Shown here one piece after another: positions 6,589 through 61,840 of a stretch of 64,000 nucleotides of DNA. Location: positions 2,497 to 66,496 of the IMG/VR virus record IMGVR_UViG_3300017780_001544. One strand, written 5' to 3'. The translations under genes were made by a program, and so were the position numbers. The stretch comes from a virus. Its lineage: Duplodnaviria; Caudoviricetes. The notes beneath the pieces are model-generated. The model made no database searches. It saw only the letters and a program-made list of their open reading frames with translations, and was not told where the DNA came from. Within the stretch, counting starts at the first letter, position 1, and each line of letters begins with the position of its first letter.

Positions 6589-6590
6589 GA

Positions 6591-8618
6591 TTATCCACCC
6601 GCGAAAGTCTTATAGATGCTGGCTGCGCCAAGGCCCGTACCCATGATCTGCTGAGCGAGACCCGGATTAGGGTTTGACTGCGTTGAAGTCGTGTTTGGCT
6701 GTATAGGGACACCCTGCAGCAAGCTGCTGTACTGCTGCAGTTGCTGGTTGTAATAGTCCCGCTGGTTCAGGAAGTCCTGATACTGCTGGGACATCGTTTC
6801 CTGCTGCAATGCCTGCTGCTGAGCCGCTGTCGCCTGCTGCTGGTTGTACATGGCCAAGTCGCTCTGCTGCTGCGCACTGCCGAGGTTGGCGAGTGTCTGA
6901 GCCGACTGGTTAGCCTGAGCCAAACCTGCCAGCCCCTGCTGCGCACCAAACTGACGCGACTGCTCCGCAAGCTTCTGAGCTTCGAGGTTAAACTGCTGGT
7001 TCGACTGGAGTGCAGCAAGACCCGTCTGGGCACCAAGCTGCTGTGTCTGCAGCGCAGCGTTAAGGTTCTGCTGGCCAGTGTTAAAGCCCATCTGCTGATT
7101 AGCCATAGCGGCCTGCAGCGCCTGCTGCTGGTTAAGACCCTGCTGTTGAAGCTGAGCCGCTTGGTTCTGCACGTTAGCCTGCTGGGCAGAAGACAGGTTA
7201 GCCAACGCCGCTTGAAGACCCGTCTGGATGCCAAGCTGCTGCGTCTGTAGGTTAGCGCTAAGGTTCTGCTGGCCGGTGGTAAGACCCGCCTGCTGGTTAG
7301 CCAACGCCGCCTGCATTGCCTGCTGGGCGTTCATCCCCTGCGCTTGGAACTGCTGTGCCTGATTATTGACCCGCGCCTGCTGCTCGTTCGTGAGGTTAGC
7401 CAACGCCATCTGGGCACCGGTCTGGGTGCCAAGCTGCTGGGTCTGAAGCTGTGAAGCTAGGTTCTGCTGACCGCGTGTAACGTCTACACCTTGGTTAGCT
7501 AGCGCCGCCTGCATCGCCTGCTGTGAGTTCATACCGTTCGCTTGGAACTGCAAAGCCTGATTGTTAACCGCAGCCTGCTGCTCGTTGCTAAGGTTCGCAA
7601 GAGTGGCCTGCAATCCCGACTGGGTACCCAACTGCTGGACGCCAAGACGAGCCGCAAGGTTCTGCTGACCTGCCTGCTGCTGCGCAGCCTGCTCTGTGTT
7701 GAACTGCTGCTGCGCGTTCTGGAACGCTTGCTGCGACCCCTGAGCTTGGATTTGCCCAAGCTGAGAGCCAAGGTTGCGCTCACGCTCGGTACCAGCAAGA
7801 AGCTGACGGGCACCACCATATGTACCTTGACGTACAGAGCCGAGGTTCTGGGCAAGCTGCCCCTTCTGCGCATCACGGATTGCTTCGCTCTTTTGAACGT
7901 CAACCACATTCTGCATGTACGGCGACATGTACTGCGAAGCTTGCGTGGAACCGAAGCTGCCCGGACCCTCCATCTGGAAGTAGTTCAGGTTAGGCTGGTA
8001 CCCAGTCTGCGCGGCCTGCATCGTAGGCGCGCTGGTGTTCTGCCCTGCGACATCCCGCACGTTACCCATCTGGTAAGCATTTAGGTTCGGGTTGTACCCC
8101 GTCTGCGCAGCCTGCATGTCTTGCGCCTGTACATTGTTACCCTGTACATTATCCGGCTGCTGCATCTGATAATTAGTCAGGCTTGGGTTAAACCCTGTCT
8201 GAGCAGTAGCCATCTGGGGGGCATTCTGCATCATAGCCTGTACGTCATTCGGACCCTGCATAGCATACTGGTTAAGAGTAGGCTGGCCAATCTGCTGGGC
8301 GTTGAACTGGTTCGGGTTATATTGGCCTGCCTGAAGCGCGCCAAGACCGGCAGTGGCAGCAAGCTGTGAGCCTGCGCCAAACTGACCCGGCGTCTGCTGG
8401 CTCAAGATGTTCTGCTGAAGCTGCTGCTGTTGGGGTGTGAACCCCGCGATGCGCTGGATGGGGTTACCGCTAGCGTCTTGATACGGTTGGTAAGGCGTGG
8501 TCAGGTTTGCCTGCGCACGGTTCATAAGGTCCTGATAATACGGCTGTGCGTAAGCCGGGAGGTTAGACGTCTCCGACTTCACATACTGTGTGCTAGTGCC
8601 ACCTCCACCACTGGACAT
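6591..8618 (-). CDS. Gln/Asn-rich DNA pilot/ejection protein, 675 aa
   Basis: MSSGGGG start, YMSPYMQNVVD...GTYGGARQ segment typical of podovirus pilot proteins, internal 32-aa and 66-aa repeats, C-terminal Gly-rich hydrophobic tail (GTGLGAASIYKTF). Confidence 0.75.
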   Translation of the reverse strand: MSSGGGGTSTQYVKSETSNLPAYAQPYYQDLMNRAQANLTTPYQPYQDASGNPIQRIAGFTPQQQQLQQNILSQQTPGQFGAGSQLAATAGLGALQAGQYNPNQFNAQQIGQPTLNQYAMQGPNDVQAMMQNAPQMATAQTGFNPSLTNYQMQQPDNVQGNNVQAQDMQAAQTGYNPNLNAYQMGNVRDVAGQNTSAPTMQAAQTGYQPNLNYFQMEGPGSFGSTQASQYMSPYMQNVVDVQKSEAIRDAQKGQLAQNLGSVRQGTYGGARQLLAGTERERNLGSQLGQIQAQGSQQAFQNAQQQFNTEQAAQQQAGQQNLAARLGVQQLGTQSGLQATLANLSNEQQAAVNNQALQFQANGMNSQQAMQAALANQGVDVTRGQQNLASQLQTQQLGTQTGAQMALANLTNEQQARVNNQAQQFQAQGMNAQQAMQAALANQQAGLTTGQQNLSANLQTQQLGIQTGLQAALANLSSAQQANVQNQAAQLQQQGLNQQQALQAAMANQQMGFNTGQQNLNAALQTQQLGAQTGLAALQSNQQFNLEAQKLAEQSRQFGAQQGLAGLAQANQSAQTLANLGSAQQQSDLAMYNQQQATAAQQQALQQETMSQQYQDFLNQRDYYNQQLQQYSSLLQGVPIQPNTTSTQSNPNPGLAQQIMGTGLGAASIYKTFAGG

Positions 8619-41486: not shown

Positions 41487-41654
41487 GGTACCATTGACGG
41501 GGGGTCTCCCTGTGTACGAAGTGGCCGCGATCCGCAGGATAAATGTAAGGGGGTGGGGGGGGCAAACTCGGGGAAACGTGATCGACTGTGCAAAACAGTA
41601 TGTATAGGCGAATGGGACTCCAATGCCCCTGACAGCGGGGGTGGCCCTAGGGTG

Positions 41655-41713
41655 GGGAACAAACGTGGAACAAACGACACCCTCCCCCCTAATTGCGGAA
41701 CAAACGTGGAACA
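41655..41713 (+). repeat. Direct repeat GGAACAAACGTGGAACA (2 copies) in the inter-arm gap
   Basis: Copies at ~41655-41671 and ~41697-41713. Confidence 0.7.
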
Positions 41714-41790
41714 TGGGCTAACATTGTTAGTTTTTCCTTGCATAACACGGAAAAACATGGTCTTATTCAATCATCGAGACGGAGACGCCG

Positions 41791-41840
41791 CCTCGACCAA
41801 CCAAGTCCACACTGGATAGCGTGGCATATAGAAGGAATAA
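41791..41840 (+). promoter_or_regulatory. Candidate early promoter P0
   Basis: TCGACCA...TCCACA-N15-TATAGAAGGAATAAT, same layout as P1 and P2 but with a weaker -35. Confidence 0.4.
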
Positions 41841-41844
41841 TATC

Positions 41845-42390
41845 ATGATTGCATCGACCGTTGTTGAAGGTATCGACCTTAACGTAGCAGACGTAACCCT
41901 TGGCTCTATCCTTGCCGATATGATTGAGGCAAGCAAGCAAGCCTACGGTTCACATATCCGCATAGCCGCCAAGTTCAATGACATGCTGCCCTTCGCTTGG
42001 TATGACATGTCACCGACTGAAAAGAGCGAGGACGCCAAGGCGTTCAAGGTTGTCAAGACCGACCTCTATACGGCGCTCAAGACCGCTGGCCATAGCAACC
42101 CTAGCGTTCCGTTCAAGCGTATCTGTGACTATGGCCGCAACCTTGCCAATGGCTTGGCACCTAGTGGCAAGACGACTATCGACGGGGTTCCCGTTGAGGG
42201 TGAAGGCGAGTCGGACGGTGCGGCTCCCGCTCCACGCTCCGCCATGCTCCGCAATGTCGAAGAGCTGACCGCGCTGTGGAAGTTCAACGATAAGCAGGAC
42301 GCCCTGCCTGCCAAGGTCAAGGCCGCTCAAGTTCACATCGAGGCCGCGCTCAAGGCCCTTGGTCTGGACGTTGCGACTATCGCAAAGTGA
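41845..42390 (+). CDS. First early hypothetical protein, 181 aa
   Basis: AAGGA RBS before ATG 41845, phage-like codon usage. Confidence 0.7.
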   Translation: MIASTVVEGIDLNVADVTLGSILADMIEASKQAYGSHIRIAAKFNDMLPFAWYDMSPTEKSEDAKAFKVVKTDLYTALKTAGHSNPSVPFKRICDYGRNLANGLAPSGKTTIDGVPVEGEGESDGAAPAPRSAMLRNVEELTALWKFNDKQDALPAKVKAAQVHIEAALKALGLDVATIAK

Positions 42391-42447
42391 GTAACGGGGA
42401 GAGCCTAACAATGTTAGGCTCTCCACCTAATCAAGAAGGGATAAGAT

Positions 42448-42540
42448 ATGACCGACATGCAGTGGAACCTAGTTATTCGTTTGGGCCTGTTCGCCCTGAT
42501 TGTAATCACCGCCAACATCTACGCAGCAATGGGAGCCTAA
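42448..42540 (+). CDS. 30-aa hydrophobic peptide (MTDMQWNLVIRLGLFALIVITANIYAAMGA)
   Basis: GAAGGGA RBS, single TM-like helix, stop lies inside a palindrome half-site. Confidence 0.5.
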   Translation: MTDMQWNLVIRLGLFALIVITANIYAAMGA

Positions 42541-42543
42541 CAC

Positions 42544-42645
42544 ATGACCCGCATCAAGCTCGCCTTCCGCATAGCGACCTACCTGTTTGGATATGCCGCT
42601 TTCCTCATTCTGTTCTGGGCTGTGATGGTGATAACTCCGGCCTAA
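42544..42645 (+). CDS. 33-aa hydrophobic peptide (MTRIKLAFRIATYLFGYAAFLILFWAVMVITPA)
   Basis: GGGAG RBS, single TM-like helix, stop lies inside a palindrome. Confidence 0.5.
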   Translation: MTRIKLAFRIATYLFGYAAFLILFWAVMVITPA

Positions 42646-42671
42646 CAATGTTAGCCCCGCCGCCTTGCGAA

Positions 42672-42701
42672 CCCCATGCACGAAGTGCATGGGGCTTTTT
42701 T
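42672..42701 (+). terminator. Rho-independent terminator of the first early unit
   Basis: 10-bp stem CCCCATGCAC/GTGCATGGGG with GAA loop, then CTTTTTT. Confidence 0.85.
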
Positions 42702-43089
42702 GTGCCTAAGTCAAGCCACCTTTATGATAGTTCCGTAGGCATAAGGTGTGGGCGGATGGCAGATGTTAAAAAGTTAAAATGTCGGGTTGGCGTTTGTAAA
42801 ACTTACAATGGCGCATTTCTGCGGGTTGTAAGTAATGTTATATTGTAAGGCCATTTTTCAACTACGACCGGAATTTGGAGAGCGTTTGGCCCTCTCCGCA
42901 AGTGCGGCACATCACCATCGAAAAGAACCGGTTATACTTTTATTTTCTATTAACATTATAACAATACAATACAACAACACAAAAACCCCAGCATTTTCTA
43001 GGCTCTCCGACCATTTCCATTGTAAACTAAAATCTTAACATCCGTCTTACAAAACCCCAAATTCCCTTACATCACCAGATTGCCTCTTG

Positions 43090-43146
43090 GTCGCACCTCA
43101 ACCAGTATCGCTTGACATGGGCGCATCCATGTTATACAAGGTTAAT
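43090..43146 (+). promoter_or_regulatory. Early promoter P1
   Basis: GGTCgcACCTCaACCAG-N6-TTGACA(43112)-N15-TATACAAGGtTAAT. Confidence 0.65.
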
Positions 43147-43217
43147 CAGGCAGAGAAAACCTCCCTGCTCACACCCAAGCCCACGCCGGATGGCATGGCA
43201 AACAGAAAGACCTAACA

Positions 43218-43526
43218 ATGTTAGATAAGCAAATCGACCTCGAAGAATACATCGCCTACCTCGATGACCAAGCATCCCGTCATGCTTACGAGCGCAACCT
43301 CGAAGCTCCCGCTTCCGTGCCTTACCAAATCATCGCCTACCCCACGATGACCACCCGCACCATCATCGACACCTTCCCCAACTATGCAGCAGCCAAGCTC
43401 GCAGCAGAAGACCGCTACCCCATCGCTTACTATGAGCAAGACACTGACGTTGCATATGTAGCCGCTGACTTCATCACCGAGCATGGCGCTATCTATAGCA
43501 TCGAGCCAGCCAAGGGAGAGAAGTAA
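43218..43526 (+). CDS. Early hypothetical protein, 102 aa
   Basis: ATG lies within a palindrome copy. TAATG coupling to the next gene. Confidence 0.7.
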   Translation: MLDKQIDLEEYIAYLDDQASRHAYERNLEAPASVPYQIIAYPTMTTRTIIDTFPNYAAAKLAAEDRYPIAYYEQDTDVAYVAADFITEHGAIYSIEPAKGEK

Positions 43527-43924
43527 TGGGCTATCGTTCAGACATTCGGGTTGTGTTCTATCTAACCGAAGGGACACACGAAGAACGACAACCCCCGCTT
43601 CCGTTCGCTGCGCTCAAGCTGTGGTTCGAGGAGACTTATCCTGTGCAGGTAGCCAAGGACGAGTGGTGCGTCGAGATTACCTACGGCGATGACTACATCA
43701 TGTGCGCTTACACCGATGTGAAATGGTATTCCGGCTACGAACATCCTAACAATGTTAGCGAAGCCTTTGAGAAGTTCAGCGCAGCGTTCCGCAGTGACGA
43801 GCGTGACCATCGTGCCCAGTATGAGTTCGTGCGTGTCGGAGAGGATGCCGATGACATCGAGACGGACCGTAGCAGCTATGCAGACCACCGACTTGGCGTC
43901 GAGCGCAGCATCATTTTTGAGTGA
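43526..43924 (+). CDS. Early hypothetical protein, 132 aa
   Basis: MGYRSDI...DVKWYSGY...EFVRVGEDADDIE conserved-looking phage family. Carries an internal palindrome. Confidence 0.75.
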   Translation: MGYRSDIRVVFYLTEGTHEERQPPLPFAALKLWFEETYPVQVAKDEWCVEITYGDDYIMCAYTDVKWYSGYEHPNNVSEAFEKFSAAFRSDERDHRAQYEFVRVGEDADDIETDRSSYADHRLGVERSIIFE

Positions 43925-44193
43925 AGGAGAAGATAGTGAACATAAGCATACAACACAAAAACACCGACTACTACGCTAAGCACTACGCCCAACTTGGCGG
44001 GCTGACCGTCATCAAGGTGCAGCTTGAGCCTGACGAGGAGGGCGGCGACCCGTGGCCCGTCCTGCTTATGGGCAGGGATGATGGCAACGGCGGTGTGGTT
44101 GACGATACCCTCATGTGGGTTGTCATCCAGCGTGACCCCGAAGGCAATGGCGCTGGCTTTGCAGCGATACACAAGATTGGAACAGGACAGTGA
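43921..44193 (+). CDS. Early hypothetical protein, 90 aa
   Basis: GTGA overlaps at both ends. VIQRDPEGNGAGF motif. Confidence 0.65.
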   Translation: MKEKIVNISIQHKNTDYYAKHYAQLGGLTVIKVQLEPDEEGGDPWPVLLMGRDDGNGGVVDDTLMWVVIQRDPEGNGAGFAAIHKIGTGQ

Positions 44194-44381
44194 ACCAAGA
44201 CGATAAAGCGGACCTCCGCGACCTACGTGACAACACCGCAGACAGCGAGGATAAGAAGCTGCTGCGCAAGACCCTCAACTATATCCATGCGCTCGAAGCC
44301 AAGCTCTTCGCGGTGCGAGTCCATGCAAAGTCCATCATCACCGAAGCCAGCGGCAAGGGCCGCGACCAAGAGGAAGACTAA
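44190..44381 (+). CDS. Early hypothetical protein, 63 aa
   Basis: Operon coupling. Stop lies inside a palindrome. Confidence 0.6.
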   Translation: MNQDDKADLRDLRDNTADSEDKKLLRKTLNYIHALEAKLFAVRVHAKSIITEASGKGRDQEED

Positions 44382-44383
44382 CA

Positions 44384-44572
44384 ATGTTAGACAAGCACGC
44401 AGACAGAGAGGCTATCCGCCTACTCAAGAAGGTGGAGCGGCTACGCCGAGAGCTACGCACACTTGAGCCACAACTCAACAAGGCTTGCATCGAATACGGC
44501 AAGCGGCGCGGGATGTCCCTGTTCCGTGAGTTTCACCTACGCAACGAGCTAGATAGAAAGGCATCAGCATGA
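44384..44572 (+). CDS. Early hypothetical protein, 62 aa
   Basis: ATG inside a palindrome, ATGA overlap with the next gene. Confidence 0.6.
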   Translation: MLDKHADREAIRLLKKVERLRRELRTLEPQLNKACIEYGKRRGMSLFREFHLRNELDRKASA

Positions 44573-44775
44573 AGAAAAACATCATCATTGGCGGCAAAGA
44601 CCGCAGCTACTACCGTGACATGTCGCACAACGCACTGCGCGAACAGGCAGACTACGGCATCGACGTTGATTGGAAGGAACTGGCTATCGCACTGACCGAG
44701 CGCCTCGATACCATCCGCGCCGAGGTCTACGAAGAGACGCGGGACATGTGCATGTGCGACTGCGCTTGTTACTAA
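44569..44775 (+). CDS. Early hypothetical protein, 68 aa
   Basis: Operon coupling. C-terminal CMCDCAC. Confidence 0.55.
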   Translation: MKKNIIIGGKDRSYYRDMSHNALREQADYGIDVDWKELAIALTERLDTIRAEVYEETRDMCMCDCACY

Positions 44776-44805
44776 TAACGCCCACCGGGGCTAATTAAAC
44801 CCACT

Positions 44806-45642
44806 ATGGCTACGGACGTAGCCACAACAAGGAGAACACTAGTGTCTTTTGGAGCAAACCCTAATGACGTTCGCGTCATGAAAACCTACGCGGATGCAGT
44901 CCGCTGGGAAAGTGAAGTCAAACCCATCCGTGGCCGTGCCGAAGAGTGCAAGCCGCTTGGTGCAAGGAACAAGAGCTACGCGAACATCCGCAAGGATGGC
45001 GACGACATCGTCGTGCGCCTCTACCGGACGGACATCGTGCGCTACAAGCCGGATGGAACTGTCATCGTAAGGCAGGGTGGCCATGAGAGCATGACCACGC
45101 GCAAATACCTCAACGCTATCTTGCCTATGTGGTTCGGTTCGCATCAGGGCAAGACGCACACGTATCGCGGGACAGATGACATAGGCTACCACATCCTACA
45201 TTCAACCGAGGACAACATCTTCAAGCAAACACCTAACAATGTTAGCTCGTCGCTCTACCACTTCGTCAACCCGCAGCCATGCGTCATCCATACCAAGAAC
45301 CGCGCCAAGGCTAAGGAAGTTCGTTCACGCTACGCGCCGTTCATCCGGTATGTGAAGAACATAACGAAGCTGATGGGTGGACGGATTGTGATTACGGAGA
45401 AACCAGCCCTCAACTACCACACTGCATCCTGCGTGCTGGACTTCGCCCTAAGCAAAGAGCCAGAGGACCAATACAAGGCGCTCGCATGGTTCGCTTGGGT
45501 TAATTGCTGGCGTGTAGGACGGGCCGATGTGCTTGCCCAGTTAGAGAACGCCCTCATGCGCCATCATCGTGACGAGATGTTCGACGCCCACATACTACCT
45601 CGCGGTGAGCTAAAGCTCGATAGGTTCAAAGGGATTTTCTAG
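44806..45642 (+). CDS. Early hypothetical protein, 278 aa
   Basis: Long ORF with KPIRGR...ECKPLGARNK...VRLYRTDIVRYKPDG. Internal palindrome. Confidence 0.75.
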   Translation: MATDVATTRRTLVSFGANPNDVRVMKTYADAVRWESEVKPIRGRAEECKPLGARNKSYANIRKDGDDIVVRLYRTDIVRYKPDGTVIVRQGGHESMTTRKYLNAILPMWFGSHQGKTHTYRGTDDIGYHILHSTEDNIFKQTPNNVSSSLYHFVNPQPCVIHTKNRAKAKEVRSRYAPFIRYVKNITKLMGGRIVITEKPALNYHTASCVLDFALSKEPEDQYKALAWFAWVNCWRVGRADVLAQLENALMRHHRDEMFDAHILPRGELKLDRFKGIF

Positions 45643-45666
45643 GGGGCTTGCGCCCCCACCCCATTC

Positions 45667-45725
45667 GGTCAGACCATCGACCAGAATGTATTGACATTAA
45701 CATAACAATGCTATACAAGGATAAT
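45667..45725 (+). promoter_or_regulatory. Early promoter P2
   Basis: GGTCagACCaTCgACCAG-N6-TTGACA(45691)-N15-TATACAAGGaTAAT. Spacer contains a degenerate palindrome (ATAACAATGCTAT). Confidence 0.65.
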
Positions 45726-45832
45726 TGTAAATGCAAGCCGGTGCAATGGCTTAGCGTTTATCTAGGTATCAATATCTAAACTAACAGTGTTAGCTGGTAT
45801 TAAGCTAGCCATAAGAAGGAGCAACGATTACC

Positions 45833-46903
45833 ATGACTACAATCAATTTCGGCTCAACCGTGAGCCTCAAGCAAGCCGCTACCCTTATCATGACCAACCC
45901 CAAGGTTCGGTTCCTCGTTCGTGGTGAGCCGGGAATTGGTAAGTCCACCATGCTTTCCATGATTGCCCAGAAGCTAGCGTCTACTCACTTAGCTGCATAC
46001 ATGGATGTGCCTAACATGGACCTTGGCGACATCGCCATGCCTGTGGTTGACCATGAGTATAAGGTGACGCGCTACTACCCCAATGCGCGGTTCCGTCTAC
46101 ATGAGGGCAAGCCCGTCATCGTCATGCTTGATGAGTTCACCAAGGGTGCCGAGCCTATCAAGAACATGCTTCACCCGCTGTTGGAAGTTACCAACCCGCG
46201 CCTTGGTGATGTTAGCATCGACGAGGAGAGCATCATCTTCATGACGGGCAACCTGCTGACTGACGGTGTAGGCGACAACATGAAGGCGCATACCCGCAAC
46301 CGTATTGTCGAGATTGTTGTCGCCAAGCCTGACGATACGCAGTGGCTTGAGTGGGCAGTCAATAGCGAGATTGACCCTGTTATCATGGCATGGGTGCGTC
46401 AATTCCCTCACGCCCTAGCTAGCTATACGGACGACAGCCAAGGCGATAACCCTTACATCTACAACCCGCGCAAGCAACAGACTGCCTACGTATCGCCGCG
46501 CTCACTCGCCATCGCATCTAACATTGTTAGGAGCCGTGAGACCAACGGTGCAGAGGCTACCATCGCTGCGCTCAAGGGTGCCATCGGTGAGGCTGCTGCC
46601 CGTGATATGCAAGCGTTCATCGACTACCAAGACCAGCTACCTTCATGGGACAGCATCCTTGCTGGGCCTAAGTCGGCGCAGGTGCCTACGTCTGCTGGCG
46701 CATCCGCAGTGCTTGTGTTCGGTGCCATCCAGAAGGTCGATAAGCAGTCGCTTACCCCGTTCCTGCAATACATGGAGCGGTTCGACAACGAGTGGCAAGC
46801 TTGCTTCGCCATCAACCTATGCGCCAACGCAGCTAAGCAGCAAATGGCATTCAGTAACCAAGCGTTCGCTGATTGGCTGGAGCAGAACGAAGACCTGCTG
46901 TGA
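45833..46903 (+). CDS. MoxR-like AAA+ ATPase, 356 aa
   Basis: Walker A GEPGIGKS, Walker B MLDEF, MTGN sensor, HTRNR arginine finger, SPRS motif. Confidence 0.88.
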   Translation: MTTINFGSTVSLKQAATLIMTNPKVRFLVRGEPGIGKSTMLSMIAQKLASTHLAAYMDVPNMDLGDIAMPVVDHEYKVTRYYPNARFRLHEGKPVIVMLDEFTKGAEPIKNMLHPLLEVTNPRLGDVSIDEESIIFMTGNLLTDGVGDNMKAHTRNRIVEIVVAKPDDTQWLEWAVNSEIDPVIMAWVRQFPHALASYTDDSQGDNPYIYNPRKQQTAYVSPRSLAIASNIVRSRETNGAEATIAALKGAIGEAAARDMQAFIDYQDQLPSWDSILAGPKSAQVPTSAGASAVLVFGAIQKVDKQSLTPFLQYMERFDNEWQACFAINLCANAAKQQMAFSNQAFADWLEQNEDLL

Positions 46904-47139
46904 GCAGAGACATCATGAACCGGAACAGGCGGCGTAATCTGACGCCGCCTCCCATCCTGACAGGCAAGAAGGTCGAGCTAGGAGAGATGAAGCGGACACC
47001 CCGTGACCCATTGGTCTGGGTGGTGACGCTGTGGATTAACGGTTGGCCGCACGACATCAAGATGTGGGCCAAGGACGAGCTAGACGTATTCAAGCAGGTC
47101 AAAGAACTTCAACGAGGAGCACCTAACAATGTTAGCTGA
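46900..47139 (+). CDS. Hypothetical protein, 79 aa
   Basis: GTGA overlap. Ends PNNVS within a palindrome. Confidence 0.5.
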   Translation: MSRDIMNRNRRRNLTPPPILTGKKVELGEMKRTPRDPLVWVVTLWINGWPHDIKMWAKDELDVFKQVKELQRGAPNNVS

Positions 47140-48361
47140 ACAAAAAGATAAGGTCGAGCGCAAGCTCAAGAAGGTCAAGATTGACCTCATGCGTAACCCC
47201 AAGTTCGCGCTGTGGTCCGGCATCATGATGGTGGGCAAGACGGAACTATCAGACCACATTCCCACCGCTTGCACCAACGGACGCGACGAGCTTTACGGAC
47301 GCGAGTTTGTCAAAGGCCTAACCGACAAGGAGCTAGCCTTCGTCATCCTGCATGAGAACATGCACAAGGCGCTGCGTCACCTGACTATCTGGCGCAAGCT
47401 GTGGGACGAGGACCGCCGTCTGGCTAACATGGCTTGCGACTACGTTATTAACCTGATGATTGTCGAGTCCGACCCGACAGAGCAATGGGCTGCGTTCCCA
47501 CGCGACAAGCAGGGGGAGCGCATCGGCTGCTTCGATACACGCTTCAAAGGTCTTAACGCCAAGCAGGTGTTCGACATACTCAAGCAGGAGCAGAAGGACC
47601 AAGGCGGCGGCGGCGGTGGTGGCGAAGGCGAAGGTGGCGAGGGCTTCGATGACCATGATTGGGATGGTGCCAAGGGCCTCAACGCCGAGGAGAAGAAGGA
47701 GCTTGAGCGCGAGATTGACCAAGCTATCCGTCAAGGCATGATGGCCGAGCAGAAGGCTATAGGTAACAAGTCGGGCAATATGTCCCGTGAGCTAGGCGAC
47801 CTGCTTGAGCCGCAGATTGATTGGCGCGAGGTATTGCGCGAGTTCGTCAAGTCCATCTGCAATGCCCGTGATACGTCATCATGGCGTAGGGTTAACCGTA
47901 GGTTCCTTGGCTCCGACATCTACATGCCCACGATGGTCGGGGAGCGTGTTGGCTCACTGGCTATTGGCATAGACACATCGGGTTCAATCAGCGGTTCGGA
48001 AATCAATCGCTTCTTGTCCGAGGTCAAGTCTATCGCAGAGGACGTTCGCCCAGAGAAGATTGACCTTATCTATTGGGACGCCAGCGTTGCAGGGCATGAG
48101 GTCTACGAAGAGCATGACATGGCTAACATTGTTAGCTCGACCAAGCCCAGAGGTGGCGGCGGCACGGACCCACGCGCCATGATGCACTACCTCAAGAAAG
48201 AGAAGATTGAGCCAGAGTGCATCATCATGCTGACTGACGGAGAGATTTATGACTGGGGTTCGGATTGGGATGCACCCATCATGTGGGTGGTTTGCAACTC
48301 ATATCGCGGCAGCACAATCACTGCCCCTGTGGGCAAGACGGTTCACATTAAAGATAATTGA
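47129..48361 (+). CDS. Putative metallopeptidase plus vWA domain protein (DUF2201-like), 410 aa
   Basis: TACTNG, ILHENMHKALRH (HExxH), NMACDYVIN, Gly/Glu linker, MIDAS-like IDTSGS, GGGGTD, IIMLTDGE. Confidence 0.85.
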   Translation: MLAEQKDKVERKLKKVKIDLMRNPKFALWSGIMMVGKTELSDHIPTACTNGRDELYGREFVKGLTDKELAFVILHENMHKALRHLTIWRKLWDEDRRLANMACDYVINLMIVESDPTEQWAAFPRDKQGERIGCFDTRFKGLNAKQVFDILKQEQKDQGGGGGGGEGEGGEGFDDHDWDGAKGLNAEEKKELEREIDQAIRQGMMAEQKAIGNKSGNMSRELGDLLEPQIDWREVLREFVKSICNARDTSSWRRVNRRFLGSDIYMPTMVGERVGSLAIGIDTSGSISGSEINRFLSEVKSIAEDVRPEKIDLIYWDASVAGHEVYEEHDMANIVSSTKPRGGGGTDPRAMMHYLKKEKIEPECIIMLTDGEIYDWGSDWDAPIMWVVCNSYRGSTITAPVGKTVHIKDN

Positions 48362-48374
48362 GAGGGGTAATCCA

Positions 48375-48626
48375 ATGGGCAAAGCAATCATCGGTATAGG
48401 CCACAACGAATACGTATTGGACATCAGTGACGCCGTTACGGTGGCGGAAATTATGGCCAAGGCCGAGTGCTTTAAGGTCAAGCACGACTACACCGTCACG
48501 CCTACTACCGTCGCTTACTTTATCTGGGAGCAGGAAGTGACGCTATCCAGAAACCACGTCACCATAAACCTACTACCCGACGCAATGTATCGGGTGGCCA
48601 AGCTGGCTGGCAAGCCACAAGACTAA
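48375..48626 (+). CDS. Hypothetical protein, 83 aa
   Basis: GAGGGG RBS before ATG 48375. Confidence 0.65.
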   Translation: MGKAIIGIGHNEYVLDISDAVTVAEIMAKAECFKVKHDYTVTPTTVAYFIWEQEVTLSRNHVTINLLPDAMYRVAKLAGKPQD

Positions 48627-48637
48627 GGAGCAAATCA

Positions 48638-49492
48638 ATGAGTATCACATCATCCGCCGTGCTGGTGGAAATGAACATCAGCGTATGGACCGCTAACAAG
48701 CTGGACAAGGGAGCTACCGAAGGTGTGCTTACATCTAACGGAGCAACGTCAGGCGATGCAGCGCAGGTCCGCAAGAACCTAATGGCTGGCACATCGGCGC
48801 GTAAGGAGATTGCCGACTACGCCGCTGGCTGTCGCCTGTGGCACAACACCCGCACACTGCCTTGGGCCGACAAGGGTGCGAGGCTACTGCCTACTAGCTT
48901 ATTCCTTGACTACAAGGCAGAGGCCAACATCCGGCGCGACACGTTCAACCAGATGGTCGATACGTTCATCGGCAACTACCCTGCACTGGTGCAGACCGCT
49001 AGCAACTACATGGGCACCCTGTTCAATCAGGATGACTACCCCAGCCCCGATACGGTGCGTGAGAAGTTCGGCTACCGCCTTGTGTTCTCGCCTGTGCCAG
49101 AGAGCGGTGACTTCCGTCTCGACCTGCCAGCGCAGGATATACGTGAGATGGAGCAGAGCTATCAGTCGGCGTTCGATGACCGTCTGGCCGAGGCTATGCG
49201 CACCCCGTGGGACCAACTGCACAAGATGCTTGGCACCATGTCTGCCAAGCTGACAGAGGGTGACGAGGACACCAAGAAGCGGTGGCACGACACGTTCGTT
49301 ACCAATGCGCAGGAGATGTGCGCAATGCTGACGCACCTCAACGTAGCCAAAGACCCCAAGCTTGAGGATGCACGTAGGCAGCTAGAGGTAGCGATGATTG
49401 GCGTGGACATCGAAGACATCAAAGATGACGAGCTTACTCGCGCCAAGCTCAAGGGCAAGCTCGACACTATCCTCAAGGAATATGAGTGGTGA
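48638..49492 (+). CDS. DUF3150-like protein, 284 aa
   Basis: AVLVEMNISVWTANKLDK...TLPWADKGARLLP...DYPSPDTVREKF...LTHLNVAKDPKLE. Typical partner of the AAA/vWA pair. Confidence 0.7.
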   Translation: MSITSSAVLVEMNISVWTANKLDKGATEGVLTSNGATSGDAAQVRKNLMAGTSARKEIADYAAGCRLWHNTRTLPWADKGARLLPTSLFLDYKAEANIRRDTFNQMVDTFIGNYPALVQTASNYMGTLFNQDDYPSPDTVREKFGYRLVFSPVPESGDFRLDLPAQDIREMEQSYQSAFDDRLAEAMRTPWDQLHKMLGTMSAKLTEGDEDTKKRWHDTFVTNAQEMCAMLTHLNVAKDPKLEDARRQLEVAMIGVDIEDIKDDELTRAKLKGKLDTILKEYEW

Positions 49493-49686
49493 GCCTGTGG
49501 GTAATCACCAAAACGTATGACGTAGCCAACCTCAAAACTAACATTGTTAGCGTTGAGCCTTACGAGGAGTTCATCGCCAAGCATGGGCGAGGCTACGCCA
49601 TCCGAAACTCTACCGACATGATTGAAGCTATCGACGCAATCGGTGCTTGGAAAAAAGCAAAGGAAATGCACAATGAACGAGATTGA
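49486..49686 (+). CDS. Hypothetical protein, 66 aa
   Basis: Operon fit. Internal palindrome. Confidence 0.45.
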   Translation: MVSLWVITKTYDVANLKTNIVSVEPYEEFIAKHGRGYAIRNSTDMIEAIDAIGAWKKAKEMHNERD

Positions 49687-50557
49687 GAACGACTACATAC
49701 CGCTGGGTATGCCCAACATCCTGTTCGAGAATAGGAAGAACGTCACCAACAACACCGAGGTTACTACGGCCAACACGACAATACATCCGTTCATGCTACC
49801 GCTGATGCGGCGTCTGGCACAGGCACGGCCCCAGTGGAAGTTCGTGACAAGCAGACGCAGTCTAGCTCACGTGAGCGACACGACAACGTTCAACGTAACT
49901 TCGTTCGATGTCTACGAGGGCAGCGCCAAGCTGGGCCGGATATGGAAGACCTACGAGAACCGTGGCGATGTTATATCCATCAACAATGAACGTATGGAAG
50001 GCAACAGGCAGCGCGGTAGCTCCACCAACACGCAGGACTTGAAGAAGGCGTTCAAGCTCATAACCAAGAACTTCCACGGTCCGACTGTTGCCGAGGTTGT
50101 GGCCGAGACGCTTGGTAAGGCGAATGCCGTTGTGTCAATGCTATCGACCAAGCACCGCAGGGAGTTTGACTATAAGTATCAGCACCTCTCCAACTTCTTG
50201 GAGGACTACACCATGAACAACTGGGAGCATATCAAGCAACTGGCTATCGACGCAGGAGTAAGCCCTATGACACTAGATGTTATGGCAGAGGCATACGAGG
50301 CGAAGCTGGCTACGCATGAGATTGCCAACGCCGTAACCAACGGCTCCGGTGCCACCGTGATGCTGCGCGGCGACGAGTATATTGTGGTTATTAACGGAGT
50401 CACAAGCATCTTCGACACGGATCACCTACCGTCACATATCAAGCGGTCCTTGGGTATCCTTAAGATGGTCGAGAACCACACATATATCGAGGGCCACGGC
50501 GCTCGTGTGGACAAGGATAAGTTTTTCATATCATCCAAAGAAGGAACAGCAGCATGA
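49673..50557 (+). CDS. Hypothetical protein, 294 aa
   Basis: AAGGA RBS, long ORF ending LKMVENHTYIEGHGARVDKDKFFI. Confidence 0.75.
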   Translation: MNEIENDYIPLGMPNILFENRKNVTNNTEVTTANTTIHPFMLPLMRRLAQARPQWKFVTSRRSLAHVSDTTTFNVTSFDVYEGSAKLGRIWKTYENRGDVISINNERMEGNRQRGSSTNTQDLKKAFKLITKNFHGPTVAEVVAETLGKANAVVSMLSTKHRREFDYKYQHLSNFLEDYTMNNWEHIKQLAIDAGVSPMTLDVMAEAYEAKLATHEIANAVTNGSGATVMLRGDEYIVVINGVTSIFDTDHLPSHIKRSLGILKMVENHTYIEGHGARVDKDKFFISSKEGTAA

Positions 50558-50832
50558 GCACGACAGCAGTTTTCGCCTTGATGGAGGCAGGTGGCTTCGA
50601 CTTCACTACGGCTAGGAAAATCATCACCAAGCTCGAAGGTAACGGGCTGACCATCTACAAGAAGAAGGTGCACAAGAACGTGCGGCGACCTACGGCTTCG
50701 CAGCCTATGACCCCCGCGATAGCCAAGGCCATCCGCGCCTACTACAACGCCTACCCTACTGCTACGCAGCAAGAGATTGCTAACCTGTTCAGTGTGAACA
50801 TCGGACGCGTGAACGAGGTGCTTACTAAGTGA
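50554..50832 (+). CDS. HTH DNA-binding protein, 92 aa
   Basis: C-terminal PTATQQEIANLFSVNIGRVNEVL helix-turn-helix. Confidence 0.7.
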   Translation: MSTTAVFALMEAGGFDFTTARKIITKLEGNGLTIYKKKVHKNVRRPTASQPMTPAIAKAIRAYYNAYPTATQQEIANLFSVNIGRVNEVLTK

Positions 50833-50966
50833 ACAAACGCAAACCCGCGCCTATCTGGTGCGACCATTGTAATGCAGAGATTAACGTAGCCGGAGTACGC
50901 TCTTGCTTGCGCAAGACATGTGCAACCAAGGCGCTACTGCCTGATGATAAGAGAGTATGGAAATGA
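50829..50966 (+). CDS. Small Cys-rich (Zn-finger-like) protein, 45 aa
   Basis: Below the track threshold. WCDHC...CLRKTC, overlaps at both ends (GTGA, ATGA). Confidence 0.5.
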   Translation: MNKRKPAPIWCDHCNAEINVAGVRSCLRKTCATKALLPDDKRVWK

Positions 50967-51136
50967 CCGAAGAACCTAAACGCTATCGGGGGCAGCGTGG
51001 CCCCAACAGGGTGAAGAAGGAGCGCATGAAGCTGGTAGGCGTCCGCCTACCGCAGCATGTGGTGGACTACTACAAAGGGTGCACACCTTTGATGCGTTCC
51101 GTGCTGATTGAGTTCATGGACAACAACCCAAACTAA
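50963..51136 (+). CDS. Ribbon-helix-helix-like DNA-binding protein, 57 aa
   Basis: Below the track threshold. RGQRGPNRVKKERMKLVGVRLPQHVVDYYK resembles RHH/BrnA-type folds. Stop lies inside the last palindrome. Confidence 0.5.
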   Translation: MTEEPKRYRGQRGPNRVKKERMKLVGVRLPQHVVDYYKGCTPLMRSVLIEFMDNNPN

Positions 51137-51162
51137 CATTGTTAGGCAGACACGTTTTGTGT

Positions 51163-51190
51163 TTGACACTGTATAATGTAATGATATGAT
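51163..51190 (+). promoter_or_regulatory. Middle promoter P3
   Basis: TTGACACTGTATAATGTAATGATATGAT, near-identical to P4. Confidence 0.65.
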
Positions 51191-58646: not shown

Positions 58647-60208
58647 TGCAAAGCGTTGACGATAAGGTGCTACTCGTCAAGACTACCGAACCCAAGACCA
58701 TTACCGACAATATCAAGAAGAGCGCGGTATATAGGCAGGATGGGGATACGTACGAAGTAGCAGTGAGATGGGGCCTCAAGGAAGCTAAGGCGCTCATGAA
58801 GCTTGGCGTAGAGAACCCGCCATCCCCAATCCAGAGGCATTATAAGTGGTCGGGCAAGCACAAGCCGTTCGACCACCAGAAAGAGACTGCCTCCTTCCTC
58901 ACCCTCAACGATAAGGCGTTCTGCTTCAACGAGCAGGGTACGGGTAAGACCGCTTCGGTTATCTGGGCTGCGGACTATCTGATTAGGCTGGGCGAGATTA
59001 AGCGCATCCTCGTGCTGTGTCCGCTATCCATCATGAAGGCTGCATGGCAGCAGGACTTGTTCACCTTTGCGATGCACCGCTCCTGCTCCGTTGCGCATGG
59101 TACGGCCAAGCAGCGCGAGAAGATTATCAAGGCTGGCAACGAGTTCGTCATCCTTAACTTCGATGGGCTGGCTGTTGTCGAGGATGCCATCATCAACGGT
59201 GGCTTCGACTTAATCGTAGTGGACGAGGCCAGCGCCTATAAGAACGCACAGACCAACCGTTGGAAGGTGCTTAGCCGCATCGTCAACACCATCAAGCCGC
59301 GCCTTTGGATGCTTACTGGTACGCCAGCAGCACAATCACCACTGGACGCCTACGGGCTGGCGAAGCTGGTCAACCCCGATAACTGCCCCAAATACTACGG
59401 CTCGTTCCGCGACCAAGTGATGTACAAGGTAACGCAGTTTAAGTGGGCGGCAAAGCCACAGGCAGAGAGCATCGTGCATAGGGTGCTTCAACCCGCCATC
59501 CGGTTCGAGAAGAAGGACTGTCTCGACCTACCTGATGTCACCTACATGGAACGCGAAGCGCCGCTAACCAAGATGCAGATGTCCTACTACAAGCTGCTCA
59601 AGGACGAGATGTTGTTCGAGGCAGCGGGTGAGGAAGTCAGCGCGGTCAACGCAGCAACCAAGATTAACAAGCTGCTGCAAATCAGCGGTGGTGCGGTCTA
59701 CACGGACACTGGCGAAGTCATCGAGTTCGATGTCAGTAACCGTCTAACGGCTGTCTTGGAGGTAATCGAGGAAGCCAGCCATAAGGTGCTGGTCTTCGTG
59801 CCCTTCACGCACACCATCCAGCTACTACGCGATAGGCTGGAGAAGGAAGGCATCAGTTGTGATGTCATCAACGGTAAGGTGCCAGTGAACCGGCGCAGTG
59901 AGATTGTCACCGAGTTCCAGACCCGCAAAGACCCGCATGTGCTTATCATCCAGCCACAGGCTGCATCGCACGGCCTGACGCTCACGGCAGCTAACACTGT
60001 TATATGGTATGCCCCTGTGACGAGCGTGGAAACCTACCTACAGGCCAATGCCCGTATCAATAGGCCGGGGCAAAAGAACAACATGACCGTTGTCCACATT
60101 CGGGGTAGCGACGTAGAGGCTAAGCTATATCATATGCTGCAGCACAACATCACAAACCACGAAAAAATTATCGACCTTTATAGGCAAATTGCCACAGATA
60201 CCCCTTGA
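58646..60208 (+). CDS. SNF2-like superfamily 2 helicase, 520 aa
   Basis: PFDHQ, EQGTGKT, VVDEAS, LTGTP, HGLTLTAA, QANARINRPGQ. Confidence 0.93.
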   Translation: MQSVDDKVLLVKTTEPKTITDNIKKSAVYRQDGDTYEVAVRWGLKEAKALMKLGVENPPSPIQRHYKWSGKHKPFDHQKETASFLTLNDKAFCFNEQGTGKTASVIWAADYLIRLGEIKRILVLCPLSIMKAAWQQDLFTFAMHRSCSVAHGTAKQREKIIKAGNEFVILNFDGLAVVEDAIINGGFDLIVVDEASAYKNAQTNRWKVLSRIVNTIKPRLWMLTGTPAAQSPLDAYGLAKLVNPDNCPKYYGSFRDQVMYKVTQFKWAAKPQAESIVHRVLQPAIRFEKKDCLDLPDVTYMEREAPLTKMQMSYYKLLKDEMLFEAAGEEVSAVNAATKINKLLQISGGAVYTDTGEVIEFDVSNRLTAVLEVIEEASHKVLVFVPFTHTIQLLRDRLEKEGISCDVINGKVPVNRRSEIVTEFQTRKDPHVLIIQPQAASHGLTLTAANTVIWYAPVTSVETYLQANARINRPGQKNNMTVVHIRGSDVEAKLYHMLQHNITNHEKIIDLYRQIATDTP

Positions 60209-61609: not shown

Positions 61610-61840
61610 ATGTCGCAAGGCTACAGCCTTCGGCTACGCGACCTTAACCGGAGGGCACCCAACAAAGCGTTGGGTGTCCGCCTCGGACGTATGTGCATCA
61701 AGCACGATGTTCCGGTTACGGTGGTAGCGAAGAGGATGGGCGTTACTCGTCAGACGGTATACAACTGGTTTGTGGGTGCATCTAACCCACAGCCATCGTT
61801 GGTTACACTGGTTGAGGCTTACATAACCCAATTCGATTAA
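61610..61840 (+). CDS. XRE-like HTH protein, 76 aa
   Basis: VPVTVVAKRMGVTRQTVYNWFVG. Confidence 0.75.
   Translation: MSQGYSLRLRDLNRRAPNKALGVRLGRMCIKHDVPVTVVAKRMGVTRQTVYNWFVGASNPQPSLVTLVEAYITQFD

What the first reader, a model, noticed from the sequence alone, without database searches (positions are those of the whole stretch)
41718..51145. Early region marked by 13 copies of a 13-bp palindrome with a spacing gradient
Seen: CTAACA(A/T/G)TGTTAG starts at 41718, 42405, 42642, 43212, 43746, 44378, 45233, 45781, 46518, 47123, 48123, 49538 and 51133, and I saw none in the other ~54 kb. Twelve fixed bases give about 0.004 expected copies in 64 kb at equal base frequencies. Gaps are 687, 237, 570, 534, 632, 855, 548, 737, 605, then 1000, 1415 and 1595 bp, so density falls with distance from the presumed genome end. 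Some copies supply stop or start codons (cTAAcaATGttag). Six copies are translated inside CDSs, always in the same frame ([PSAT]-N-[NI]-V-[SR]), so the site is kept at the cost of protein sequence. One copy extends to a 27-bp inverted repeat (42398-42424). Established: 13-bp palindromes with a free centre, scattered irrespective of genes, define protein-organised domains (E. coli matS/MatP is GTGACRNYGTCAC). Inference: a dimeric protein coats the first ~10 kb of early DNA. It could ratchet or protect DNA during entry, shut the early region down collectively, or serve as cassette-shuffling sites. An ordinary operator would not need so many intragenic copies.
Basis: partly seen in the sequence, partly recalled or inferred. 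Interest (0 to 1): 0.88.

Follow-up and report, generated by a model that had tools for sequence, protein, structure and literature searches.

The report
Phage early-arm palindromic operator array
An uncultured 66-kb marine phage and hundreds of relatives keep one 13-14-base palindrome at gene junctions, just after promoters and even inside genes of their early gene block. It is most likely a set of docking sites for the phage's own first early protein, which would control that whole block.

Summary
There are 13 exact CTAACANTGTTAG copies at 41718-51145 and none elsewhere in the 66.5-kb genome (0.01 expected by chance).

The array is a family trait. Of 336 IMG/VR relatives, the 80 fetched mostly carry 5-22 copies in the same arm, as CTAACA-N-TGTTAG, CTAACA-NN-TGTTAG or rarer symmetric variants.

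- **DNA-level symmetry.** The flanks are mirror-symmetric, and the rare one-mismatch copies vary at the outer bases in mirror-symmetric fashion.
- **Selection inside genes.** The copy inside the AAA-ATPase gene is held at synonymous positions in 37-38 of 38 distinct sequences.
- **Position.** About two thirds of 13-bp copies and nine tenths of 14-bp copies lie at gene boundaries. They typically sit +30 to +80 from sigma-70-like promoters, and many supply the stop or start codon.
- **Spacing gradient.** It is real (23 of 23 arrays) and follows gene size.

The best candidate reader is the first early protein (41845-42390). All 42 array-bearing loci that include the arm's start encode it, and its two deep subfamilies match 1-nt versus 2-nt spacing. 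Spacer-2 genomes form at least four well-supported separate clades. The three loci without it lack CTAACA arrays.

Its fold is unrecognised, binding is untested, and a host factor is not excluded.

It resembles stoperator arrays, φC31 conserved inverted repeats and KorB operators. This scan noted similar arrays earlier in related genomes.

The parts
41718..41730 (.). Site 1, in the divergent region between the late (minus) and early (plus) arms, 7 nt upstream of a TTGCAT -35-like hexamer of the first early promoter
41738..41768 (+). Candidate first early promoter (TTGCAT, about 17-19 nt, TG-preceded weak -10). Relatives have a clear TTGxxx-17-TGnTATAAT promoter at this place.
   Evidence: sequence; upstream regions of 40+ relatives
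41845..42390 (+). First early gene (p189, 181 aa from the ATG), candidate reader of the palindromes. All-alpha protein with no known family.
42398..42424 (.). Site 2 (42405-42417) at the centre of a 27-bp inverted repeat just after the p189 stop codon. Orthologous copies in G001 and G002 are also extended by G+C-rich arms.
42642..42654 (.). Site 3. Its TAA is the stop of a 33-aa hydrophobic peptide gene (42544-42645). An intrinsic terminator follows at 42672-42703.
43212..43224 (.). Site 4. Its central ATG is the start codon of gene 43218-43526. It lies about +73 from a candidate extended -10 promoter (TTGACA at 43112, TGtTATACA at 43130).
43746..43758 (.). Site 5, inside gene 43526-43924 (reads P-N-N-V-S)
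44378..44390 (.). Site 6. Its TAA stops gene 44190-44381 and its ATG starts gene 44384-44572.
45233..45245 (.). Site 7, inside the conserved 278-aa gene 44806-45642
45781..45793 (.). Site 8, in the 5' leader of the AAA-ATPase gene, about +55 from the promoter-like site 45697-45725
46518..46530 (.). Site 9, inside the AAA-ATPase gene (TCT AAC ATT GTT AGG, reads S-N-I-V-R). Held at synonymous positions across relatives.
47123..47135 (.). Site 10. Its ATG is the start codon of the DUF2201 (metallopeptidase-VWA) gene 47129-48361. The orthologous copy in L104 has a 2-nt centre.
48123..48135 (.). Site 11, inside the DUF2201 gene. Orthologous copies are present in G001 and G002.
49538..49550 (.). Site 12, inside the small conserved gene 49486-49686 (reads T-N-I-V-S)
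51133..51145 (.). Site 13. Its TAA stops the RHH-like gene 50957-51136. Its centre lies at about -58 from the strong promoter that follows. The orthologous copy is the only one kept in the array-less relatives L102 and L075.
51163..51190 (+). Strong sigma-70-like promoter (TTGACA-16-TATGAT with TG, 11 of 12) at the head of the replication genes. It marks the downstream end of the array.

Best explanation
The 13 palindromes are double-stranded DNA operator sites for a phage-encoded, probably dimeric regulator. Its best candidate is the product of the first early gene (41845-42390).

Proposed mechanism: host RNA polymerase starts early transcription from sigma-70-type promoters. The first protein made then accumulates and binds sites beside its own promoter, in the 5' leaders of the other early units, at gene junctions and inside the long early genes. 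It thereby limits or shuts off the whole early arm by promoter-proximal repression and roadblocks. It may also set the timing of the replication-gene promoter next to the last site.

Shown: the array, its conservation, its symmetry, its selection at the DNA level, its geometry relative to promoters and genes, and its co-variation with the first early protein.

Inferred: that this protein binds the sites directly, and that binding represses.
For: Array and specificity:
- 13 copies against 0.01 expected, and none elsewhere in the genome.
- The same or a related palindrome array occupies the same arm in most of 80 fetched relatives out of 336 found.

Double-stranded DNA reading:
- The flank logo is symmetric and shows no hexamers at fixed distance.
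- 76 of 91 one-mismatch variants are at positions 1 or 13, the dominant changes mirror each other, and none is wobble-type on the coding strand.
- Site 1 lies upstream of the first promoter.

Selection on the DNA itself:
- Third-position entropy is 0-0.18 bit at the S, N, I and V codons of the AAA copy.
- Nearby invariant residues show 1.2-1.9 bit.

Geometry:
- 68% of 13-bp and 92% of 14-bp copies lie at gene boundaries.
- About 24% have their central NTG opening an ORF of at least 35 codons, against about 5% for random positions.
- 64 of about 91 strong promoters with a downstream site have its centre at +30 to +80. The replication-gene promoter has a site centred at -58 in this phage's close relatives, and mostly -84 to -93 in others.

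Reader:
- 42 of 42 array-bearing loci that include TerS encode p189 as the first early gene.
- Subfamily A goes with 1-nt spacing (31 of 31, plus L010). Subfamily B goes with 2-nt or mixed spacing (11 of 11).
- Three loci lack p189 and none has a CTAACA array.
- Spacer-2 genomes form at least four well-supported separate clades on the AAA tree. Two are resolved as sisters of spacer-1 genomes.
- Sites in conserved genes 5-10 kb away from the p189 gene switch class as well.
- p189-A and p189-B were the two best discriminators in an unbiased scan of ORF clusters.

Precedent: a small dimeric protein (MtvA) binds TAACATTGTTA in gel-shift assays (PMC11826091).
Against: - p189 has no recognisable DNA-binding fold or family. 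Foldseek gave nothing below E = 0.8. VIA Z was at most 6.4, only generic helical matches. There is no Pfam hit.
- Co-variation could arise through a hidden variable such as the host.
- G005 has an 11-copy GTAACA-N-TGTTAC array but no detectable p189 homologue.
- L010 has a 2-nt centre with an A-like p189.
- Several subfamily-B genomes keep a few 1-nt sites.
- A site at +30 to +80 is an unusual position for a classical repressor.
- The direction of the effect (repression or activation) is not shown.
Confidence: 0.5

Rival explanations
1. A host-encoded DNA-binding protein (a global regulator or nucleoid protein) reads the palindromes. The first early protein would co-vary only because both it and the site form are tuned to the host.
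For: p189 shows no DNA-binding fold. G005 has an array without p189. A bacterial plasmid protein binds the same core, TAACATTGTTA (PMC11826091).
Against: The core TAACA is nearly invariant across phages of 40-59% G+C, which are probably on different hosts. Sister phages on the AAA tree differ in spacing. Presence of an array tracks presence of p189 in 45 of 45 loci. The first promoter, which drives p189, is bracketed by sites, as in autoregulated regulators.
Confidence: 0.15
2. The sites organise or handle the DNA rather than regulate transcription. A protein would coat or bridge the first-entering 10 kb for entry, protection or compaction, as in matS/MatP, parS/ParB or KorB-type clamps.
For: Copies are fairly evenly spaced (coefficient of variation 0.67). 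Single copies are written into the long genes as if a minimum density were required. The array begins at the junction between the late and early arms, where a physical genome end could lie, though the ends are not known.
Against: Copies show a strong preference for gene junctions and a +30 to +80 position after promoters. No ParB, KorB or MatP-like domain appeared in the roughly 55 products scanned against Pfam and/or PHROGs. The ends are unknown. L102 is otherwise an intact relative without the array.
Confidence: 0.15
3. The element works as a hairpin, either in RNA (translational operator, antiterminator or processing site at start regions) or in extruded DNA (N4-type hairpin promoter for a virion RNA polymerase).
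For: The form is a 5-bp stem with a 3- or 4-nt loop, and loop length varies even within one genome. Outer-pair changes such as C..G to G..C keep pairing. Many copies overlap ribosome-binding sites and start codons. The AAA and VWA genes are most similar to those of N4-like phages.
Against: The stem sequence is invariant while the centre is free, the reverse of most known RNA hairpin readers. There are no wobble-type variants. Flanks carry no directional signal. Site 1 lies upstream of the first promoter. Host-type promoters sit upstream of the sites. No RNA polymerase was detected; the 2187-aa virion protein matched only LPD39.
Confidence: 0.1
4. The palindromes are recombination hot spots that shuffle early gene cassettes.
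For: The region between TerS and the AAA gene is mosaic among close relatives. Inserted genes bring their own copy.
Against: Homology breakpoints between the window and L005 fall at gene borders (about 43520, 43921 and 44190), not at sites. Intragenic copies in core genes and the synonymous-site constraint are not explained by shuffling.
Confidence: 0.05

Closest known systems
Operator/stoperator arrays of Cluster A mycobacteriophages (L5 gp71 and relatives; PMC9283540, PMC6550527)
   Same: Many identical 13-bp sites lie in short intergenic spaces that overlap stop and start codons. A phage protein reads them, and site and protein change together between relatives. The presumed action includes blocking elongating polymerase.
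   Different: Stoperators are asymmetric, oriented with transcription, spread over both arms and bound by a monomeric HTH immunity repressor of temperate phages. Here the sites are palindromes confined to the early arm. No integrase was seen among the products scanned, and the candidate reader is an unrelated all-alpha protein made first in infection.
Conserved inverted repeats of Streptomyces phage φC31 bound by repressor c (recalled from Ingham et al. 1994 and Wilson et al. 1995; not read here)
   Same: Highly conserved palindromic operators are repeated in many intergenic positions of the early region.
   Different: φC31 is temperate and its sites are 17 bp. hhalign of the p189 alignment against the φC31 repressor found no similarity (probability 0.1%).
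   Same: A 13-bp palindrome with a free centre occurs in about a dozen copies and coordinates expression or organisation of a DNA domain.
   Different: Those readers are ParB-type HTH or RHH proteins. No such domain was found among the products scanned. The sequences differ, and KorB acts at a distance from promoters.
MtvA (MazE-like antitoxin of plasmid pPAD8) and its operator TAACATTGTTA (PMC11826091)
   Same: It has the identical 11-bp core, shown by gel shift to be bound by a small dimeric protein.
   Different: It is a single autoregulatory site on a plasmid. No MazE/AbrB domain is present anywhere in this genome.
Hairpin promoters of coliphage N4 virion RNA polymerase (from my own knowledge)
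   Same: A 13-nt element with a 5-bp stem and 3-nt loop lies in the early region, and the AAA and VWA genes are shared with N4-like phages.
   Different: N4 has three such promoters, with specific loop and stem bases and directional flanks, plus a giant T7-like polymerase. Here the centre is free, the flanks are symmetric, host-type promoters are present and no polymerase was detected.

Membership tests
Cluster A stoperator system | Many copies of one roughly 13-bp site in short intergenic regions near stop and start codons | tested here: met
   There are 13 copies. 68-92% of family copies lie at gene boundaries, and several supply a TAA stop or ATG start.
Cluster A stoperator system | Asymmetric site in one orientation relative to transcription | tested here: not met
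   The site is a perfect palindrome with symmetric flanks.
Cluster A stoperator system | Read by the HTH immunity repressor of a temperate phage | tested here: not met
   No integrase or L5-type repressor appeared among the products scanned. The candidate reader has no HTH or Pfam match.
Cluster A stoperator system | Bound protein stops elongating RNA polymerase | not testable with these tools
   This needs in-vivo or in-vitro transcription assays.
KorB/ParB-type operator network | ParB/KorB-family HTH reader encoded by the element | tested here: inconclusive
   None was found among the roughly 55 products scanned against Pfam and/or PHROGs. Not every small ORF was scanned.
MatP/matS | The GTGACRNYGTCAC site read by the host MatP protein in the chromosome terminus region | tested here: not met
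   The sequence is different, the array is phage-borne and it co-varies with a phage protein.
N4-type hairpin early promoters | Virion-packaged T7-like RNA polymerase | tested here: inconclusive
   The 2187-aa virion protein has no PHROG hit (N-terminal 1737 aa tested), no PDB sequence hit and only Pfam LPD39. A cryptic polymerase is not excluded.
N4-type hairpin early promoters | Specific loop base and directional flanking sequence | tested here: not met
   The centre base is free (A, T, G or C) and the flanks are symmetric.
φC31 conserved inverted repeat / repressor c system | Reader homologous to repressor c (PF25746) | tested here: not met
   hhalign gave probability 0.1%. The ESM Atlas score of 0.81 is at chance level.
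MazE/AbrB-type operator (MtvA-like) | MazE/AbrB swapped-hairpin domain protein in the genome | tested here: not met
   A six-frame search with PF04014 found nothing at E <= 10.

The most novel reading that the evidence does not exclude
The first early protein founds a new structural class of sequence-specific DNA readers. With its palindrome network it would form a re-programmable control or organising system for the first-expressed 10 kb of an abundant, uncultured marine phage family. In that reading the half-site spacing (1 versus 2 bp) was switched repeatedly by swapping between two deep protein subfamilies, and whole arrays, including copies inside core genes, were rewritten to match.
Probability: 0.35. 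Interest if true: 0.75.

Novelty: new variant of a known kind. Interest (0 to 1): 0.62.

Why it matters
If confirmed, this is a clean natural experiment in the co-evolution of a DNA reader and a dispersed site network. There are hundreds of genomes and at least four well-supported separate spacer-2 clades on the AAA tree. Sites inside genes are kept by synonymous codon choice, and one relative has lost both the p189 gene and the array.

It would extend stoperator-like global control from temperate actinophages to apparently lytic marine podoviruses, and it would give a function to a widespread orphan protein family (455 or more metagenomic members).

It also gives annotators a practical marker for the early arm and its gene starts in this family. 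Several genes begin at the ATG inside the palindrome.

Tried and rejected
- **RHH protein 50957-51136 as reader.** It is conserved in 63 of the 89 sources searched. However, its beta-strand varies within one motif class. It is absent from G005, which has an array, and present in the array-less L102 and L075.
- **HTH-like protein 50554-50832.** It has no homologue in any relative.
- **HTH 61610-61840.** It is present in G000-G004 but absent from G005. It lies outside the fetched loci, so co-variation could not be tested.
- **Small 64-aa protein after the primase gene.** No Pfam hit.
- **Double-RHH first ORF of L097.** Its homologues also occur in 1-nt-spacing genomes.
- **p189 fold and family searches.** Foldseek against PDB and BFVD, VIA-align on the whole model and on the N-terminal domain, Pfam on 39 members, a PF11300 search of this genome, and the φC31 repressor comparison gave nothing usable.
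- **MazE domain search.** Negative.
- **Virion RNA polymerase.** None detected.
- **Cultured relatives.** Megablast of the region against GenBank phages found nothing. HTVC027P and DSL-LC04 share only a TerL at 56-58% identity, have a different layout and show no palindrome array in the first 50 kb examined.
- **Literature.** A full-text search for the motif strings found no phage paper.
- **CTTACC-N3-GGTAAG in G004.** It looked dispersed over the genome. Looser CTTAC-N4/5-GTAAG copies do cluster in its early arm, but this was not pursued.

Full report
**Observation.**
An exact scan finds 13 copies of CTAACANTGTTAG at the coordinates given, against 0.01 expected from dinucleotide-preserving shuffles. 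Allowing one mismatch adds only 59991.

The window is bases 2497-66496 of a 66,496-bp IMG/VR virus record. The whole record contains the same 13 copies and no others. Its 123-bp terminal repeat most likely reflects a circular assembly, so the physical ends are unknown.

The 27-bp inverted repeat at 42398-42424 is real.

**Genome context.**
Genes from 41565 leftwards lie on the minus strand. They include TerS, TerL, portal, tail and fibre proteins, and a 2187-aa virion protein that matches only the LPD39 domain.

Genes from 41821 rightwards lie on the plus strand:
- small unknown ORFs;
- a MoxR-type AAA ATPase (45833-46903);
- a DUF2201 metallopeptidase-VWA protein (47129-48361), whose closest cultured homologues are in N4-like phages at about 30% identity;
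- then an Hjc-like nuclease, family-A DNA polymerase, exonuclease, helicase and primase.

The array therefore runs from the divergent junction of the two arms to a strong sigma-70-like promoter at 51163-51190. That promoter heads the replication genes. No RNA polymerase gene was detected.

**The array is a family trait.**
The AAA protein retrieved 8 and then 336 related IMG/VR stretches, of which 80 loci were kept.

- Close relatives carry 13-17 copies of the same word, clustered in the same arm.
- Across the 80 loci (40-62% G+C), most carry 5-22 copies of CTAACA-N-TGTTAG or CTAACA-NN-TGTTAG. A few genomes mix the two.
- Rarer symmetric variants occur: GTAACA-N-TGTTAC (G005), CTGACA-NN-TGTCAG (L097) and CTTATA-WW-TATAAG (L067). 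In L067 at least the last copy sits at a position orthologous to a CTAACA copy in relatives.
- L102 and L075 have lost the array. They keep one copy, orthologous to the last copy of their relative L065, which lies just before the replication-gene promoter.

**DNA or RNA.**
- A logo of 566 distinct 1-nt-centre copies, oriented by gene direction, is symmetric (rCC..GGy). It shows no promoter hexamers at fixed distance.
- The central three bases are A-N-T in 95% of CTAAC-N3-GTTAG copies.
- Of 91 distinct one-mismatch variants inside arrays, 76 are at positions 1 or 13. The dominant changes mirror each other (C>A 20, G>T 36).
- None of the 91 variants is a wobble-compatible change on the coding strand.
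- In most relatives one copy lies upstream of the first early promoter, outside that transcript.

Invariant arms with a free centre are the reverse of what most RNA hairpin readers require. I read the element as a double-stranded site for a symmetric protein.

The centre does show a coding-strand bias: A 402 versus T 293, and AA 164 versus TT 33. This is explained by frequent use of the central ATG as a start codon.

**Selection on the DNA itself.**
The copy inside the AAA gene encodes S-N-I-V-R, a motif conserved even in relatives that lack the site. In 38 distinct 1-nt-spacing genomes the codons are TCT AAC ATT GTT AGx almost without exception. Third-position entropy there is 0-0.18 bit.

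Nearby invariant Val, Ser, Pro, Arg, Ile, Ala and Gly codons show 1.2-1.9 bit. Genomes that use only the 2-nt spacing have lost this copy through synonymous changes such as TCG AAC ATT GTC CGG.

So the site is kept by codon choice and not at the expense of the protein.

**Position.**
In the window, eight copies are intergenic or at junctions:
- 41718 lies beside the first promoter.
- 42405 follows the first gene.
- 42642 carries the stop of a 33-aa peptide gene and precedes a terminator.
- 43212 and 47123 supply start codons.
- 44378 supplies both a stop and a start codon.
- 45781 lies in the AAA leader.
- 51133 carries the stop of the RHH gene.

The other five copies are intragenic.

Family-wide, 68% of 13-bp and 92% of 14-bp copies lie within 150 nt of an ORF end. 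About 24% have their central NTG opening an ORF of at least 35 codons, against about 5% for random positions.

Of the intragenic copies, 158 use the x-N-x-V-S/R frame and 30 use L-T-x-L. They are dominated by a few orthologous positions.

Strong sigma-70-like promoters in the early arms have a site centre at +30 to +80 in 64 of about 91 cases. The replication-gene promoter has a site centred at -58 in this phage's close relatives, and mostly -84 to -93 in others.

In most relatives the first promoter (TTGxxx-17-TGnTATAAT) is bracketed by two copies. One lies upstream and one lies just before the ribosome-binding site of the first gene.

The widening gaps occur in 23 of 23 arrays. The median gap is 563 bp in the first half and 984 bp in the second. 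This follows the order of small accessory genes first and large core genes later.

**Who reads it.**
The RHH-like protein (50957-51136) is conserved, but three things count against it:
- Its beta-strand varies within one motif class.
- It is absent from G005.
- It is present in the array-less L102 and L075.

The HTH-like 50554 protein has no homologues.

I tested that here.

- The product of 41845-42390 (p189) has homologues as the first early gene in all 42 array-bearing loci that include TerS.
- It splits into two deep subfamilies. Subfamily A goes with 1-nt spacing (31 of 31, plus L010, whose centre is AATT). Subfamily B goes with 2-nt or mixed spacing (11 of 11).
- The three loci without p189 (L011, L052, L102) have no CTAACA array.
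- On an AAA tree the 2-nt genomes form at least four well-supported separate clades. Two are resolved as sisters of 1-nt genomes (a quick tree, not the finished careful search).
- Copies in and beyond the conserved core genes, 5-10 kb from p189, have switched class as well. An example is the DUF2201 start copy in L104 versus L065. Simple block linkage is therefore not enough to explain the pattern.
- In an unbiased scan of all plus-strand ORF clusters, p189-B (0 of 47 versus 11 of 17 loci) and p189-A (32 of 47 versus 1 of 17) were the two strongest class discriminators.

The AlphaFold2 model of p189 has mean pLDDT 84. It is all-alpha, with a four-helix N-terminal domain, an acidic Gly/Glu linker and a C-terminal helical hairpin. 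Trp52 is invariant and Arg92 nearly so.

- No fold search gave a meaningful match. Foldseek found nothing below E = 0.8, and VIA Z was at most 6.4 on generic helical proteins.
- Pfam, a PF11300 search of this genome and the φC31 repressor comparison gave nothing.
- At least 455 metagenomic homologues are all unnamed.

Direct binding is therefore an inference from co-variation, co-loss and position. A host factor acting as a hidden variable is not excluded. G005 has an array without a detectable p189.

**Mechanism proposed.**
- Host polymerase fires the early promoters.
- p189, made first, binds beside its own promoter, in the leaders of the other early units, at junctions and inside the long genes.
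- This damps or terminates early transcription across the arm.
- p189 may also affect the neighbouring replication-gene promoter.

What is shown: the sites, their symmetry, their selection, their geometry and their co-variation. What is inferred: direct binding by p189, and repression as the outcome.

**Comparison and novelty.**
The closest known systems are the stoperator arrays of Cluster A mycobacteriophages (PMC9283540, PMC6550527), the conserved inverted repeats of φC31, and KorB operators.

This system differs in four ways. Its sites are palindromic. They are confined to the early arm. The phage has no detected lysogeny genes. The candidate reader is an unrelated orphan protein.

The core TAACATTGTTA is bound by a MazE-like plasmid protein in gel shifts (PMC11826091), but no MazE domain exists in this genome.

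I found no paper describing this array. Other agents of this scan have reported similar arrays in related and unrelated phages. Within the scan it is therefore a recurring kind.

I class it as a new variant of a known kind.

Noticed in passing
window 41560-41715: The non-coding block between TerS and site 1 holds a direct repeat GGAACAAACGTGGAACA (41656-41672 and 41697-41713), a conserved GTGCAAAACAGTATGTATAGG-like word and G-runs. Relatives keep similar words here. It could be a packaging site, a genome terminus or the late-promoter region.
   Followed up: partly
window 42448-43210: Two tiny hydrophobic peptide genes (30 and 33 aa) are followed by a strong intrinsic terminator (42672-42703). 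About 500 bp of AT-rich non-coding DNA follows, with a TTGACA / TGtTATACA promoter-like site near 43112.
   Followed up: partly
window 59991-60003: A one-mismatch copy (CTAACACTGTTAT) lies inside the helicase gene. It is kept at the orthologous place in G001 (33453) and G002 (27980). Whether it is functional or only coding conservation is unknown.
   Followed up: no
window 50957-51136 and orthologues: A ribbon-helix-helix-like 59-aa protein is conserved in 63 of the 89 sources searched. Its stop codon lies in the last palindrome. Some orthologues (L061, L067, L105) carry an N-terminal CxxC...CxxC zinc ribbon. Its own target is unknown.
   Followed up: partly
L012 (G005) 1-7000: The early arm holds about 20 paralogous small proteins that end in a DELDA[MF]K / DELxAF motif, interleaved with GTAACA-N-TGTTAC copies. 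No p189 homologue is present.
   Followed up: no
L052 8017-14413; L102 1347-17240: The 8-mer TAGCCGAG occurs 7-8 times: always on one strand in L052, and five of eight on one strand in L102. These are two relatives with no or few palindromes.
   Followed up: no
L106: Nine copies of a different 17-mer (TGCTTAAAAAATAGGCA) occur alongside only five palindromes.
   Followed up: no
L102 5674-5713 and 9875-9914: The array-less relative has two copies of a 40-nt strong promoter (TTGACA-17-TGTGGTAtAcT), one of them directly upstream of the AAA gene.
   Followed up: no
L013 (G000) 1144-7707, minus strand; window 1-5211: The 2187-aa virion protein has a conserved C-terminal half and only an LPD39 match, with no sequence hit to solved structures. 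It occupies the position that the giant virion polymerase holds in N4-like genomes.
   Followed up: partly
L097 334-924: The first ORF of the CTGACA-NN-TGTCAG phage contains two tandem RHH-like motifs. Homologues also occur in 1-nt-spacing genomes, so it is not specific to that motif.
   Followed up: partly
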